Shown here: positions 25,775 through 29,922 of the stretch, in pieces
How the letters are laid out: the number at the start of each line of letters is the position of its first letter
Position numbering within the stretch: the stretch's first letter is position 1
The notes under the pieces: generated by a model
Database searches by the model: none
What the model was told of the DNA's origin: nothing
What the model saw: only the letters and a program-made list of their open reading frames with translations
UHGV virus genome: UHGV-0125936
DNA: 35,354 nucleotides
Direction: 5' to 3' (one strand)
From: a virus
Made by a program: the position numbers and the translations under genes

Positions 25775-27154
25775 TTAATAGTCTGCATTGCTGGATTGCC
25801 TATCTTTTGCGTATCGTCTGGTTTGAGTTTTCTGCTGTGGCGCCGAACGCTGCTTTGCTAACTCCTGGTCAATTGGCAGGAAGTGCCCGTTATAGAATCG
25901 ACGGTAAATCGTGCCTAGTTCACCGTTTCGCTGTTTGGTCACGTTAATTTCCGCGATCCCTTTCGCTGGAGACTCAGGGTTATAAACTTCGTCGCGGTAA
26001 AGCATCATGATCAGATCAGCATCTGCCTCGATCTCACCCGAGTTTTTGAGGTCTGAGTTCATCGGTCGCTTATTGGGCCGCGACTCAACGCCACGAGAAA
26101 GCTGGCTCAGGGCAAGCACTGGCGTTTTATTAGATTTAGCCAGACGTTTTAGTCCTTTTGACACCTCGCCGACGGCAAGGTCATATCGTGCAGTGCTTTC
26201 GATTTTGATGAGTGCCAGATAATCCACCACCACCAGCGCTATTTCCGGATGCGCCAGTTGCAGGCGGGTAGCTATCTGTTGAATCTGATCTACTGTCAGA
26301 TCGGTGGAATCAACCATCCAGATGCTACGACCAGTCAGCCGTTCTACACCGTTTGTCAGCCTGGCCCAGTCCTCATTCTCAAAATCAGCAGCCTTTTTCA
26401 GGCGTGAAACAGACATACCACCCGCAGCAGATACCATTCGCTCACCGATCTGGATATTTGGCATTTCCATGCTGAAGAACAGCACACCGCGGCCCTGCTC
26501 AGAAACTTTGTCGATGATATCCAGCGCCAATTCAGTTTTACCCACCGACGGCCGCGCAGCGATAAACACCAGGTCTGTTGGTTCAATGCCTCCAGTCTTT
26601 GCATCAAGCTCTTCAATGCCCGTCATGAGGCTTCTGGCTTCTTCGAGGCCGCGGTTGCGTGCATCTACCCGATCCACTACAGCAGGAAGAATGTCGTCGA
26701 TATGAACTGGCTGAACGGTCTTTTCTTCGAGAGAAATTGCGGCAATGCTGTTCTGTGCAGCCCTGAATGCCGATAAAGCCGCATCACCATTGTGAGCACT
26801 CCGGAGATCAGCCAGCGCCCTTTCAATCACAGCTTCGGCATCACGAACAGCTGCATTACGCTCAAGCGTGGCAACGTATGACACAAGCGCCGACTTGGCC
26901 CATGCGATACGGCTCGAATCCATAATGATTGCGCTGTGCTTTGGCATGTTTTCGCAGAGCAGTACAGGGTCAATAACGCCAGCTCCACGCGCCTGACGGC
27001 AGATCCCAGTATATATTTCCCGATACTGCGGTACCGAGAAAGCGGTGGCCGGCACCCTGGAAAGAATATCCAGTACCTCAGGGTCGGCTCCACGCAGAAA
27101 AATTGCGCCGATCACCGCACCTTCCAGATCTTCATTTTTCCAGACAGGAGTCAT
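25775..27154 (-). CDS. Replicative DNA helicase, DnaB-like
   Basis: 459 aa; Walker A IAARPSVGKT; N-terminal DnaB-like helical domain. Confidence 0.9.
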   Translation of the reverse strand: MTPVWKNEDLEGAVIGAIFLRGADPEVLDILSRVPATAFSVPQYREIYTGICRQARGAGVIDPVLLCENMPKHSAIIMDSSRIAWAKSALVSYVATLERNAAVRDAEAVIERALADLRSAHNGDAALSAFRAAQNSIAAISLEEKTVQPVHIDDILPAVVDRVDARNRGLEEARSLMTGIEELDAKTGGIEPTDLVFIAARPSVGKTELALDIIDKVSEQGRGVLFFSMEMPNIQIGERMVSAAGGMSVSRLKKAADFENEDWARLTNGVERLTGRSIWMVDSTDLTVDQIQQIATRLQLAHPEIALVVVDYLALIKIESTARYDLAVGEVSKGLKRLAKSNKTPVLALSQLSRGVESRPNKRPMNSDLKNSGEIEADADLIMMLYRDEVYNPESPAKGIAEINVTKQRNGELGTIYRRFYNGHFLPIDQELAKQRSAPQQKTQTRRYAKDRQSSNADY

Positions 27155-28032
27155 GCTACAACTCCTGACGCGATGGCACGGAAACTTCCCCAGCCAAATG
27201 CCAGACGGTTGCGGCCACCATCTGTAACCCGGTCCACGATTCGCTCACCAATAGTCTCTTTCAGCTGGTCAAATGTGAGATTGCTGATCAGGATGGTTGG
27301 CAAAATGCTTTCGTACCGAGCATTGATAATTTCCTGCAGGATGGTCATTTCAGTCGGGCTGCCGAACTGAACACCAACTTCGTCGATAATCAGCAGATCC
27401 AGTGAAGCAAAGCGTTCAATGACGTCTTCCTCGGTCATTTCGGCATTGTGGCGCCATGTGCTTTTTACCGCTCGGGTGAGGCGCATGACATCGGTGATTT
27501 CCACATTCGCAAGGTGATCGCGGATGATGCTCTTTGCCATAGCCACTGCCAGGTGGTTTTTGCCGGTGCCGCAATTGCCGGTCATAACAAGCCCGGTACC
27601 GGCATTAAGTCGCTCAGGCCAGCTGCTGGCATAACGCTGACAAGCCGCGAGATTTTTGGCGGCATCCTGATTGATGGCCTGGTAGTTATCGAATTCACAT
27701 GCTTCGAACCGTCGTGCAATCCCGGCATTGTCTATCAGGTCGGCTACTCGTAATGCGCGCAGACTGGCTTCAATGTCAGCAAGTTCCGCTTTCACACACT
27801 CCGGGCACTGGGAGTGCTTAACATTTTCAACGCCACGATACGCTTTTCCAATGAGGGTAATACGCTCAAAATCGCCATGCTTCTCGCAGGTGGAGGTGCT
27901 GACTTCGCCTGACTCCCAGCTTCCCCATTGCCACGGTTTTTTATGCTCTACAGCGAAAGCCAGTTCTTCACTAAGCCCTTCACGTTTCGCCACCAGAGCT
28001 TCCCTTTCTTCACGTTGTTTGATACTCAGCAT
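27151..28032 (-). CDS. Helicase loader, DnaC/IstB-like AAA+ ATPase
   Basis: Walker A GNCGTGKNH and Walker B LLIIDEVG; overlaps DnaB-like start. Confidence 0.85.
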   Translation of the reverse strand: MLSIKQREEREALVAKREGLSEELAFAVEHKKPWQWGSWESGEVSTSTCEKHGDFERITLIGKAYRGVENVKHSQCPECVKAELADIEASLRALRVADLIDNAGIARRFEACEFDNYQAINQDAAKNLAACQRYASSWPERLNAGTGLVMTGNCGTGKNHLAVAMAKSIIRDHLANVEITDVMRLTRAVKSTWRHNAEMTEEDVIERFASLDLLIIDEVGVQFGSPTEMTILQEIINARYESILPTILISNLTFDQLKETIGERIVDRVTDGGRNRLAFGWGSFRAIASGVVA

Positions 28033-28047
28033 TGTGATTTCTCCTGC

Positions 28048-28857
28048 TTACCAGTTGCAGTCTGACTGGCCATAATCTTGCTCACTGAACCCGGACACCG
28101 GCAAACCTCCAGACCTTCCGTTTGTTGGGCCAGACGGTGCCTGCCATGCCTCTTCGAAATGCCGATCGGGACCAAAGAAAGTCGCCGCCTGTTTCACGTA
28201 CTGTGTTCCAGCACTACCTGTAGCACGGACATAACCGGCATAACGGTTTACGCCAGCCAGCATTGCCTCAGTGGTAACACCGTCTTTAATTCGAGCTTTC
28301 CAGGCTTTCCAGGCAGCGGCCTTGGAATTACCACCAGCACGTTTTGGGTATGCCTGCCATGCCTGCTCGAACTCGTTGGAATAGTTTCCCTTGGAAGAGC
28401 GATTTTCAGAATCGTTGTCAGATGAACCGTTATATTTAGGTTCTATGACTGATTCATTGACTGGTTCAAAAGAGTGACTGATTCTGGGTGCAGCTCCTGC
28501 ACTACCCCCTAGTGAATCTCCTGCACTATGGGGTGAATCTCCTGCACCAGGTAGTGAACTATTTGCACTACCCCCTAGTGAATCTCCTGCACTACTGAAA
28601 TCAAGGCGATAAACATTACTTGAGTTACCTTTTGGCCCCGGGCGAAGTTCTTTTTTTACCAAGCCGCATTCACACAAAGCATCAATGTGATTCATCACAG
28701 ATCGCTTACTGATTTCACACTGATCCGCTATGTGTTGATAGCTCGGCCAGCACTCACCGCGATCACTTGCGTTATCGGCCAACTTCAGGAGGACGAGCTT
28801 ACGAAGTGGATTACCTACCCTTACCTTCATTGCCTTAACCATCAATTCCATGCTCAT
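28048..28857 (-). CDS. Replication initiator (lambda O-like function) with internal ori iterons
   Basis: N-terminal winged-helix-like region (IADQCEISKRSVMNHIDAL); central repeated SAGDSLGGSA peptide encoded by DNA iterons; Trp/Lys-rich C-terminal domain. Confidence 0.65.
   Translation of the reverse strand: MSMELMVKAMKVRVGNPLRKLVLLKLADNASDRGECWPSYQHIADQCEISKRSVMNHIDALCECGLVKKELRPGPKGNSSNVYRLDFSSAGDSLGGSANSSLPGAGDSPHSAGDSLGGSAGAAPRISHSFEPVNESVIEPKYNGSSDNDSENRSSKGNYSNEFEQAWQAYPKRAGGNSKAAAWKAWKARIKDGVTTEAMLAGVNRYAGYVRATGSAGTQYVKQAATFFGPDRHFEEAWQAPSGPTNGRSGGLPVSGFSEQDYGQSDCNW
28498..28593. repeat. Origin iterons: 30-bp perfect direct repeat at 28498-28527 and 28564-28593 with a third 15-bp core copy between
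   Basis: Direct repeats read in sequence inside the initiator gene, as lambda ori lies within O. Confidence 0.6.
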
Positions 28858-28935
28858 GCGACACCCGCCAACACATTTTCGTTACTGAATTCAGCAAACA
28901 GCAAAGGCTCGCTGACGCAATAATGCCGTGACATG

Positions 28936-29148
28936 TCACACTCCTGAGGATGGGGGGAAAATATCCTCGATAGATAAGTTCTTACCGTTTTTTCTCAATA
29001 CTTCTACCAACTGATGGCATGTTTTAATATCAGGAGTTCGCCTTCCTGATTCGTAATGGCCAATAGAACTAATAGTCTGACCAATTTCCTCAGCCAGACC
29101 ACGCTGGGTAAGGTGAAGCGATAGTCTTAATTTTCTAAGATTGTTCAT
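28936..29148 (-). CDS. cro: Cro-like HTH repressor
   Basis: 70 aa; HTH LTQRGLAEEIGQTISSIGHYESG; divergent from cI; RBS GAGGAGG. Confidence 0.75.
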   Translation of the reverse strand: MNNLRKLRLSLHLTQRGLAEEIGQTISSIGHYESGRRTPDIKTCHQLVEVLRKNGKNLSIEDIFPPSSGV

Positions 29149-29256
29149 GGGTCCTCCTCATAGGAGAATCAAATGTACATTATGTAGTTTACATAATCAA
29201 ACAAATTGTACATATTGTGCATTGAGGAAAACTACACAAGGTGTATCATTTAGACC
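29149..29256. promoter_or_regulatory. OR-like region: divergent pR/pRM with TGTAC-core operators
   Basis: Palindromes aatgtacatt (29172-29181), tatgta-gtt-tacata (29181-29195), aattgtacat (29204-29213); candidate pR TTGATT/TACATT on - strand; candidate pRM TTGAGG/TATCAT ending about 7 nt before cI ATG. Confidence 0.55.
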
Positions 29257-29922
29257 ATGAAAAAACACTGGAACGAACTGGCTAAAACCAGACTGGCTGC
29301 GCTTGGAATGACCCAAGCAGAACTCTCTGAGAAGATGGGTGTAACTCAGGGTGCAATGGGCCATTGGCTTAACGGGCGAAGAAGTCCATCGCTAGCAGAC
29401 GTTGGCTCTATATTCCAGATCCTTGGAATATCTGGGGCTTCCATAAATCCAGACGGGACTTTCACTGTCTCGGAGGATCTAACCCTACCCCCTGTTAAAC
29501 AGCAGTATGAGTACCCCCTATTTACAACAGTGCAAGCTGGTCAGTTTGCTGATGTTGGAACGTTTACTGAGCGTGATGCTCTCCAGTGGATTCCTACAAC
29601 CAGAAAAGCTGGGCCGGACTCGTTTTGGCTTGAGGTAAGCGGGCATTCAATGACAGCCCCGCCAGGAACAAGACCAAGCTTCCCAGAAGGTATGTTGATT
29701 TTAGTTGATCCATCTGAGGATGTTGAACCAGGGGATTTTTGTGTTGCCGGCATACACAACGATTCAGAGGTTACTTTTAAGCGTTTCGTTCGAGAAGATG
29801 GTCAACCATGGCTGGAACCGCTAAACCCAAACCCTCGCTACCAAAGCATACCCTGTAATGAAAACTGCAGGATCATAGGCAAAGTAGTAAAAGCCCAATG
29901 GCCAGAAGATACTTTTGATTAA
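29257..29922 (+). CDS. cI: CI repressor (HTH + S24 LexA-like autopeptidase)
   Basis: N-terminal HTH ([23 protein letters not shown]); QAG candidate cleavage site; C-terminal GHSM...FKRF Ser-Lys dyad. Confidence 0.9.

What the first reader, a model, noticed from the sequence alone, without database searches (positions are those of the whole stretch)
28498..28593. Replication origin iterons inside the initiator gene
A perfect 30-bp direct repeat occurs twice, with an additional 15-bp core copy (GTGAATCTCCTGCAC) and a degenerate copy nearby. These encode a repeated SAGDSLGGSA peptide, paralleling lambda ori lying within O.
Basis: partly seen in the sequence, partly recalled or inferred. Interest (0 to 1): 0.45.

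Follow-up and report, generated by a model that had tools for sequence, protein, structure and literature searches.

The report
Prophage replication origin inside initiator gene
The repeats are very probably the replication origin of an Enterobacter lambda-like prophage, sitting inside the gene for the protein that binds them; this layout is well known from phage lambda, but this very common initiator family has apparently never been studied.

Summary
Five 15-bp units (GTGAATCTCCTGCAC on the + strand), not four, lie at 28488-28592 with spacings of 24, 21, 21 and 24 bp. They include a perfect 31-bp pair and sit inside a 269-aa initiator gene (28048-28857, minus strand).

- About 190 related loci carry arrays at the same place in the gene.
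- The same DNA motif is read in three coding contexts (xAGDSx, xESPAP, VQxIH), so the DNA is conserved, not the peptide.
- Iteron sequence co-varies with the recognition helix of the N-terminal winged-helix domain (Mantel r = 0.65).
- Copy number varies by whole units among near-identical relatives.
- Next to the array lies a roughly 42-bp constant element with three GAAYCAGTCA repeats. It is AT-rich, its synonymous sites are frozen (90% identical codons against 45% in the N-domain), and it is the least stable stretch of the gene.

The layout mirrors lambda O/ori-lambda and P22 gene 18. The protein shows no detectable homology to either.

Verdict: a new member of a known kind, in a widespread family that is named only "helix-turn-helix protein". 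Interest is moderate to low.

The parts
28048..28857 (-). Initiator gene (269 aa). It encodes an N-terminal winged-helix domain, a disordered linker encoded by the origin, and a helical C-terminal domain.
   Evidence: ORF. Pfam HTH_36 at 1.6e-12. phrog_270 'replication initiation protein' at 1e-76. A 100% identical protein exists in Enterobacter asburiae, and 6040 homologue clusters were found.
28591..28857 (-). N-terminal winged-helix DNA-binding domain (residues 1-89). The predicted recognition helix is residues 51-63 (28669-28707).
   Evidence: The AF2 model gives H-H-H-H-beta-beta with pLDDT 70-85. Foldseek returns weak generic winged-helix matches. The helix region co-varies with the iteron sequence.
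28578..28592 (.). Iteron 1, first in gene order. Gene-sense sequence GTGCAGGAGATTCAC.
   Evidence: Exact core match.
28554..28568 (.). Iteron 2, a variant-centre copy. Gene-sense sequence GTGCAAATAGTTCAC: the outer half-sites are kept and the centre differs.
   Evidence: (family D9). The same variant sits at the same position in SfV, cdtI, mEp460 and L005.
28533..28547 (.). Iteron 3. Gene-sense sequence GTGCAGGAGATTCAC.
   Evidence: Exact core match.
28512..28526 (.). Iteron 4. Gene-sense sequence GTGCAGGAGATTCAC.
   Evidence: Exact core match.
28488..28502 (.). Iteron 5, nearest the AT-rich element. GTGCAGGAGCTGCAC is a perfect dyad, GTGCAG-N3-CTGCAC.
   Evidence: It sits at a fixed distance from the constant element in all loci.
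28446..28487 (.). Constant element. Gene-sense sequence CCCAGAATCAGTCACTCTTTTGAACCAGTCAATGAATCAGTCA, with three GAAYCAGTCA 10-mers (+ strand TGACTGRTTC at 28446, 28458, 28475). Proposed unwinding or helicase-entry element.
   Evidence: All three 10-mers lie here, against 0.09 expected. The element was found in 74 of the 75 scorable loci across all iteron classes. Identical-codon fraction is 0.90 against 0.45 in the N-domain. In Pseudomonas hosts GC3 is 0.32 against 0.73-0.76 for the rest of the gene.
28420..28470 (.). AT-rich, least stable duplex segment of the gene. It overlaps and extends the constant element.
   Evidence: GC is 0.33-0.38. The least stable 40-bp window of the gene starts at 28431 and is in the top 1% of the whole window.
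28048..28389 (-). C-terminal domain of the initiator (residues 157-269). Presumed recruiter of the helicase or loader.
   Evidence: PHROG matches to 'DnaD-like helicase loader' and 'primosomal protein' families over residues 127-248. Helical in the AF2 model. This domain is swapped among relatives that share the N-domain and origin.
27151..28032 (-). DnaC-like helicase loader gene, immediately downstream.
   Evidence: Pfam IstB_IS21 at 9e-17. phrog_50 'DnaC-like helicase loader' at 2e-80. NCBIfam DnaC at 1e-40, below the curated cut-off.
25775..27154 (-). DnaB-family replicative helicase gene.
   Evidence: Pfam DnaB_C at 5e-75. TIGR00665 at 3e-95, below the curated cut-off.
28936..29148 (-). 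cro-like gene heading the early operon that transcribes through the origin.
   Evidence: HTH_3. Position next to the divergent cI-like gene 29257-29922 (HTH_3 plus Peptidase_S24).

Best explanation
The array is the iteron part of the prophage's replication origin, embedded in the linker-coding middle of its own initiator gene.

Inferred mechanism:
1. The early operon is transcribed from the cro side and the 269-aa initiator is made.
2. Dimers of its N-terminal winged-helix domain bind the five 15-bp dyad-like iterons (GTGCA-N5-TKCAC). These are spaced about two helical turns apart, so the bound proteins lie on roughly one face of the DNA and form a nucleoprotein complex like the lambda O-some.
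3. Strain from this complex opens the adjacent AT-rich constant element with its three GAAYCAGTCA repeats (28420-28487).
4. The C-terminal domain recruits the phage's own DnaC-like loader and DnaB-like helicase, encoded just downstream, onto the opened DNA.

Shown here: the anatomy, DNA-level selection on the repeats and on the constant element, co-variation of helix and iteron, and the gene context.

Inferred only: binding, unwinding, helicase recruitment and origin activity.
For: - Gene identity and context.
- All motif copies in the window lie in this array, spaced 24/21/21/24 bp.
- In 77 related sequences (72 from 185,579 species genomes, 4 phage records and the window itself), the same 15-mer occurs 3-7 times at nt 260-480 of the gene in about 50 of them.
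- The motif appears in three coding contexts: 145 copies in sense frame 1 (xAGDSx), 53 antisense (xESPAP) and 33 in sense frame 0 (VQxIH). The DNA, not the peptide, is conserved.
- Loci with a different recognition helix have different dyad-symmetric repeats at the same place and spacing.
- Mantel r is 0.65 for helix against iteron (0 of 2000 permutations reach it). It is 0.10 for the constant N-terminal part against iteron.
- The helix-to-iteron mapping was replicated in 120 viral contigs seeded on the constant element alone; 111 carry the family N-domain and the other 9 are cut or disrupted.
- Near-identical relatives differ by whole units, from 247 to 291 aa.
- The constant element has frozen synonymous sites (0.90 against 0.45). 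It resists the GC3 bias of Pseudomonas hosts (0.32 against 0.73-0.76) and is the least stable duplex segment in the gene.
- The encoded peptide 90-156 is predicted disordered with pLDDT about 31, like a linker that tolerates DNA-level constraints.
- The same layout is annotated in lambda (iterons 39034-39118 inside O) and in P22 (rep_origin inside gene 18). It is described in PMC7466680 and PMC8022706.
Against: - No experiment on any family member was found. The exact motif is absent from the searchable literature.
- Helix and iterons lie about 150 bp apart, so part of their co-variation could be simple linkage.
- The AT-rich dip is modest (GC 0.33-0.38); the cI/cro intergenic region is more AT-rich.
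- The structure model is low-confidence overall (mean pLDDT 56), and the fold matches are generic.
Confidence: 0.8

Rival explanations
1. The repeats are binding sites for the initiator, but they serve autoregulation, copy control or incompatibility (a roadblock or handcuffing array). They are not the site where replication starts, and the true origin lies elsewhere.
For: Iteron arrays in plasmids also act in copy control (established knowledge). Binding inside the gene could block transcription of the downstream loader and helicase genes (context). More AT-rich DNA exists in the cI/cro intergenic region.
Against: The array is always joined at a fixed distance to a conserved AT-rich element under DNA-level selection. 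No other copy of the motif or of the 10-mer exists in the window. The layout matches origins annotated in the lambda and P22 records, and ori-lambda is experimentally established (PMC7466680).
Confidence: 0.1
2. The repeats are just a slippage-generated, low-complexity Gly/Ser/Ala/Pro linker. They were selected, if at all, for the flexibility of the peptide and have no DNA-level function.
For: The encoded segment is predicted disordered. Unit number varies freely among close relatives.
Against: The same 15-mer is kept in both orientations and in two frames, giving unrelated peptides. The repeat sequence tracks the recognition helix. The spacing is fixed at 21/21/24 bp.
Confidence: 0.03
3. This rival concerns the constant 42-bp element only. 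It is conserved because it is the recombination joint at which N-terminal (specificity) and C-terminal (helicase-recruiting) modules are shuffled. It is not conserved because it is an unwinding element.
For: Homology to the window protein ends at about residue 140, just after this element, in many Pseudomonas, Aeromonas and other loci with different C-terminal domains. The element is an island of identity between divergent flanks.
Against: Frequent exchange alone would not hold GC3 at 0.32 inside genes with GC3 of 0.73-0.76. The element has an internal 12-bp repeat structure and is the least stable segment of the gene. The two roles are not exclusive.
Confidence: 0.15

Closest known systems
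Phage lambda O protein and ori-lambda (four 18-19-bp iterons plus an AT-rich tract in the middle of gene O)
   Same: - The origin lies inside the initiator gene, in the linker between a DNA-binding N-domain and a helicase-recruiting C-domain.
- There are four to five dyad-like iterons at about two-turn spacing: lambda 20/24/23 bp, here 24/21/21/24 bp.
- An AT-rich tract lies on the promoter-distal side.
- The gene sits in the early operon after cro.
- Iteron number varies among relatives, with matching insertions in the protein (Stx phages have 6 iterons and 13 extra aa, PMC7466680; here).
   Different: - No detectable sequence homology: there is no Pfam Phage_rep_O hit and hhalign probability is 0.7%.
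- The iteron sequence is different.
- The AT-rich part is a different, repeat-containing element.
- The partner genes are a DnaC-like AAA+ loader plus the phage's own DnaB-like helicase, instead of lambda P hijacking host DnaB.
- There is no cII gene between cro and the initiator.
Phage P22 genes 18 and 12, and phage L gene 18
   Same: The origin is annotated inside gene 18, followed by a phage-encoded DnaB-type helicase. Iterons are specific to each phage's initiator (PMC8022706).
   Different: There is no detectable homology to gp18 (hhalign probability 0.2%). P22 has no DnaC-like loader gene between initiator and helicase. The P22 AT-rich tract resembles lambda's (record note 'similar to phage lambda'; lambda tract compared from memory) and not this one.
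Bacillus phage SPP1 G38P, G39P and G40P
   Same: From general knowledge, not tested here: a three-gene module of origin-binding protein, helicase loader and DnaB-type helicase, with one origin (oriL) lying inside the initiator gene.
   Different: SPP1 infects a Gram-positive host. Its loader G39P is not a DnaC/IstB-type AAA+ protein, and its binding boxes are different. I made no sequence comparison.
Iteron plasmids (RK2 TrfA, pPS10 RepA, F RepE, R6K pi)
   Same: From general knowledge: winged-helix initiators bind phased 17-22-bp iterons next to an AT-rich unwinding element built of 11-13-mer repeats. The three GAAYCAGTCA repeats here have a comparable 12-bp period.
   Different: In plasmids the iterons lie outside the rep gene. 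The Rep fold has two winged-helix domains. Homology was not tested here.

Membership tests
Lambda O family (Pfam PF04492, Phage_rep_O) | Sequence match of the N-terminal domain to the Phage_rep_O profile or to lambda O itself | tested here: not met
   The Pfam scan at E <= 0.01 gives only HTH_36 and a sub-threshold DnaD_N hit. hhalign of alignment A2 against lambda O gives probability 0.7%.
Lambda-type in-gene origin (the architecture, not protein homology) | Four or more initiator-specific repeats inside the initiator gene, between the two domains | tested here: met
   Five units lie at gene nt 265-369 of 810, between the winged-helix domain (residues 1-89) and the C-terminal domain (from residue 157). 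For comparison, the lambda iterons lie at nt 348-432 of 900.
Lambda-type in-gene origin (the architecture, not protein homology) | AT-rich, easily unwound tract directly next to the last iteron | tested here: met
   GC is 0.33-0.38 at 28400-28480. The least stable 40-bp window of the gene starts at 28431.
Lambda-type in-gene origin (the architecture, not protein homology) | The initiator binds the repeats and replication starts there | not testable with these tools
   This needs EMSA or footprinting and an origin-cloning or marker-frequency experiment.
P22 gene 18 family | Sequence homology to gp18 | tested here: not met
   hhalign probability 0.2%.
Pfam HTH_36 (PF13730) and PHROG 270 'replication initiation protein' | Profile match above threshold | tested here: met
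   HTH_36 scores 47.5 bits against a cut-off of 25. phrog_270 gives 1e-76 over residues 2-265.
DnaD-like initiators and remodellers | DnaD_N winged-helix domain above the Pfam gathering score | tested here: inconclusive
   DnaD_N scores 21.1 bits against a cut-off of 27. DnaD-N (2v79) is among the weak Foldseek matches at E = 0.06. The C-terminal part matches PHROGs named 'DnaD-like helicase loader'.

The most novel reading that the evidence does not exclude
This initiator family (at least 6040 protein clusters, present in 862 of 5426 complete E. coli genomes and in Stx2c-converting phages) may carry a modular origin in two parts.
- The first part is a variable iteron array whose half-sites can be read off the recognition helix. 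About ten helix/iteron classes were seen here.
- The second part is a family-wide invariant 42-bp element with three GAAYCAGTCA repeats. It would be recognised sequence-specifically, for example as single strands by a conserved part of the initiator or by the loaded helicase complex, and would be more than simply AT-rich.

If so, replicon specificity and incompatibility of thousands of prophages could be predicted from sequence. The invariant element would be a new kind of conserved unwinding or loading site.
Probability: 0.3. Interest if true: 0.55.

Novelty: new member of a known kind. Interest (0 to 1): 0.35.

Why it matters
This initiator family is very common in prophages of Enterobacteriaceae, Pseudomonas, Aeromonas, Shewanella and Vibrio, including SfV, ST64B, cdtI and Stx2c-converting phages. 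Public annotation calls it only "helix-turn-helix domain-containing protein".

A recent survey notes that lambdoid phages encoding only an O-like gene are experimentally unstudied (PMC12315714). SfV, cdtI and mEp460 have that one-gene layout.

Placing the origin and its specificity determinant gives three things:
- a direct handle for building origin plasmids;
- a way to predict which co-resident prophages share initiator specificity;
- a starting point for studying toxin-phage replication.

It does not change the general picture of how lambdoid phages start replication.

Tried and rejected
- Rfam scan of the whole window at gathering thresholds: no family.
- Promoter and terminator consensus scan of 27900-29400: nothing inside the origin, and counts at shuffle level.
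- Folding the region as a single strand: z = -3.7. The dyad symmetry of individual iterons explains this. Most copies (GTGCAGGAGATTCAC) are not self-complementary, so I rejected a conserved hairpin or RNA element.
- PDB sequence search: no relative.
- Foldseek against PDB: only generic winged-helix matches at E = 0.01-0.06. These support the fold class only.
- hhalign against lambda O and P22 gp18: negative.
- Literature searches for the exact motif and for iterons in SfV, ST64B, ZF40, mEp460 and Stx2c phages: nothing specific.
- Vibrio phage 236O40-1 has the same record length as the window (35354). I checked it and it is an unrelated coincidence: 61% identity, opposite strand, different neighbouring genes.
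- Phage operators as the bound sites: rejected. The cI/cro intergenic repeats (AAATGTACATTATGT) are unrelated.

Full report
**What is there**

The + strand of 28488-28592 carries five 15-bp units at 28488, 28512, 28533, 28554 and 28578, with spacings of 24, 21, 21 and 24 bp.
- Three units are exactly GTGAATCTCCTGCAC.
- The unit at 28488 is the perfect dyad GTGCAGCTCCTGCAC.
- The unit at 28554 keeps both outer half-sites but has a different 5-bp centre.
- A perfect 31-bp pair (28498-28528 and 28564-28594) spans two units plus their spacer.

No other match with up to 3 mismatches exists in the 35-kb window; shuffles give a mean of 1.06 and a maximum of 3. The array lies in a 269-aa ORF on the minus strand (28048-28857). 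Its translation contains SAGDSLGGSA twice.

**Context**

- The ORF matches Pfam HTH_36 over residues 17-67 and phrog_270 'replication initiation protein' at 1e-76.
- Upstream in its operon is a cro-like gene (28936-29148), facing a cI-like repressor gene (29257-29922).
- Immediately downstream are a DnaC/IstB-like loader (27151-28032) and a DnaB-family helicase (25775-27154).
- The rest of the window is an HK97-like lambdoid prophage.
- The initiator is 100% identical to an Enterobacter asburiae protein. At least 6040 homologue clusters exist, named only 'helix-turn-helix domain-containing protein'.
- At nucleotide level the gene is 91% identical to 'Aeromonas' phage AsXd-1. It is 75-78% identical to SfV, cdtI, mEp460 and Stx2c-converting phages, and to prophages in 862 of 5426 complete E. 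coli genomes.

**Are the repeats selected as DNA or as peptide?**

I fetched 73 loci from one-genome-per-species contigs and four phage records.
- In about 50 of the 77 sequences compared (76 of these fetched loci plus the window; L076 is only 265 bases), the same 15-mer (gene sense GTGCAGGAGATTCAC) occurs 3-7 times at nt 260-480 of the gene and almost nowhere else in about 6 kb of flank.
- Across these loci the motif is used in three coding contexts: 145 copies in sense frame 1 (xAGDSx), 53 copies on the opposite strand (xESPAP) and 33 copies in sense frame 0 (VQxIH). Exact matches occur in each context, and orientations are mixed within single arrays.
- One DNA word giving three unrelated peptides means the DNA is the conserved object.
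- Near-identical relatives (99-100% identical outside the array) differ by whole units, from 247 aa (two units) to 291 aa. The same happens in lambda against Stx-phage origins (PMC7466680).

**Specificity**

Loci whose predicted recognition helix differs carry different repeats at the same place, all with dyad-like outer half-sites:

| Recognition helix | Repeat |
|---|---|
| CEIS(K/R)RSV(M/I)xH(I/V) | GTGCA-N5-T(G/T)CAC |
| CEIGRSTVK(L/S)H | GGGGCAGGAGCTG(C/A)CC |
| CEI(A/S)RSTVKVHI | GGGGCGG-N4-(T/A)(G/A)(C/A)CC(C) |
| CEIDRSTVRKHI | TGTAGGCCCAGAAAGCAC |
| CEIAKSTVRKHI | ATGCCGTCAGATAGCAC |

The spacing is almost always 21, 21, 24 bp.
- A Mantel test gives r = 0.65 between divergence of the helix region and divergence of the last iteron; 0 of 2000 permutations reach it. 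The more conserved N-terminal 40 residues give r = 0.10.
- Physical linkage could contribute to this figure. However, the pattern held in an independent sample.
- That sample was 120 viral contigs found by searching for the downstream constant element alone. Of these, 111 carry the family N-domain and the other nine are cut at a locus end or disrupted. Each helix type again has its own repeat, including new classes such as SKSAVRNHI with TGCCA-N5-TGGCA and SKSAVRDHI with TGCCG-N5-CGGCA.

**The constant element**

Directly after the last iteron, every class has CCCAGAAYCAGTCACTCTTTTGAACCAGTCAATGAACCAGTCA (window 28446-28487). It contains three GAAYCAGTCA 10-mers at 17- and 12-bp spacing.
- In the window, all three matches to TGACTGRTTC lie here, against 0.09 expected.
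- Among codons that encode the same amino acid in two loci, 90% are identical codons in this element, against 45% in the N-terminal domain.
- In 34 Pseudomonas loci, GC3 is 0.32 in the element against 0.73 and 0.76 in the gene parts on either side.
- It overlaps the least stable 40-bp duplex segment of the gene (start 28431, top 1% of the window) and a GC dip to 0.33-0.38.
- I read it as the unwinding or helicase-entry part of the origin. That reading is inference.
- Homology between relatives often ends right after this element, so it may also, or instead, act as a recombination joint for swapping C-terminal domains.

**Protein anatomy**

- An AlphaFold2 model from 15 close relatives is poor overall (mean pLDDT 56).
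- It gives a helix-helix-helix-helix-strand-strand domain for residues 1-89 at pLDDT 70-85. The fourth helix (51-63) is the segment that co-varies with the iterons.
- Residues 90-156, exactly the part encoded by the iterons and the constant element, have pLDDT about 31. This fits a linker that can absorb DNA-level constraints.
- Residues 157-228 are helical.
- Foldseek finds only generic winged-helix proteins (MarR, ArsR, PerR, DnaD-N) at E = 0.01-0.06. There is no relative in the PDB by sequence.

**Comparison with known systems**

- The lambda record annotates four iterons at 39034-39118 inside O (38686-39585) with spacings of 20, 24 and 23 bp.
- P22 has its rep_origin inside gene 18, followed by the DnaB-like gene 12.
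- The phage L paper states that lambda, P22 and L each have their own iterons within the initiator gene (PMC8022706).
- The architecture here is the same, but the protein is not a detectable homologue. There is no Phage_rep_O hit, and hhalign probabilities are 0.7% against lambda O and 0.2% against P22 gp18.
- The three-gene set of initiator, AAA+ loader and DnaB-like helicase differs from lambda O/P and from P22 18/12.
- SfV, cdtI and mEp460 carry the same initiator, C-terminal domain included, but no loader or helicase genes.
- That one-gene module type is said to be experimentally unstudied (PMC12315714).
- I found no paper describing these iterons.

**Verdict**

It is a new, widespread and uncharacterised member of a well-known kind of origin. 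The general mechanism is not surprising. The helix/iteron classes and the invariant 42-bp element are the parts worth an experiment.

Noticed in passing
L001 (MH178096.1) and window 1-29000: 'Aeromonas' phage AsXd-1 is 91-92% identical in nucleotide sequence to this Enterobacter prophage across both the structural and the replication genes. Its initiator sequence is also on record from Enterobacter hormaechei. The host label of that phage record looks doubtful.
   Followed up: no
L002-L004 (cdtI, SfV, mEp460): These phages share the same initiator, C-terminal domain included (67-68% aa identity). However, no DnaC-like or DnaB-like gene follows it; it is followed by a PerC-family regulator gene (absent in cdtI), dam and rusA. 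The same C-terminal domain therefore works with or without a phage-encoded loader and helicase.
   Followed up: partly
window 28858-28935: Only a 78-bp gap separates the cro-like gene from the initiator. There is no cII-like gene in the position it occupies in lambda and P22.
   Followed up: no
window 29171-29218: The cI/cro intergenic region holds operator-like repeats AAATGTACATTATGT and AATTGTACATATTGT (direct family D12, inverted pair I10). It also has the lowest GC of the neighbourhood, 0.23-0.30.
   Followed up: no
P0038 and P0040 (247 aa relatives): Some relatives that are otherwise about 90-100% identical keep only the last two units next to the constant element. For lambda, two iterons plus the AT-rich tract suffice in vitro (PMC7466680), so these copies may still be functional.
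   Followed up: no
L080 900-925 (P22 origin): The annotated P22 origin contains GAATCAGTCA at the junction between its iterons and its AT-rich tract. This is identical to the window's 10-mer. It overlaps an inverted P22 iteron, so it may be chance.
   Followed up: no
window 27151-28032 (minus strand), residues about 45-85: The DnaC-like loader has an N-terminal extension of about 80 aa containing C-x2-H and C-x2-C spaced about 30 residues apart (CEKHG...CPEC). This may be a zinc ribbon. The extension matches phrog_22964, of unknown function.
   Followed up: no
L125, L148: In two viral contigs the constant element and iterons persist but the N-terminal domain is truncated or out of frame. These may be decaying initiator genes or origin remnants.
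   Followed up: no
L078 (OX241425.1): Vibrio phage 236O40-1 has the same record length as the window (35354). It also has a family member at nearly the same coordinates, but on the other strand and at only 61% identity. This is a coincidence.
   Followed up: yes
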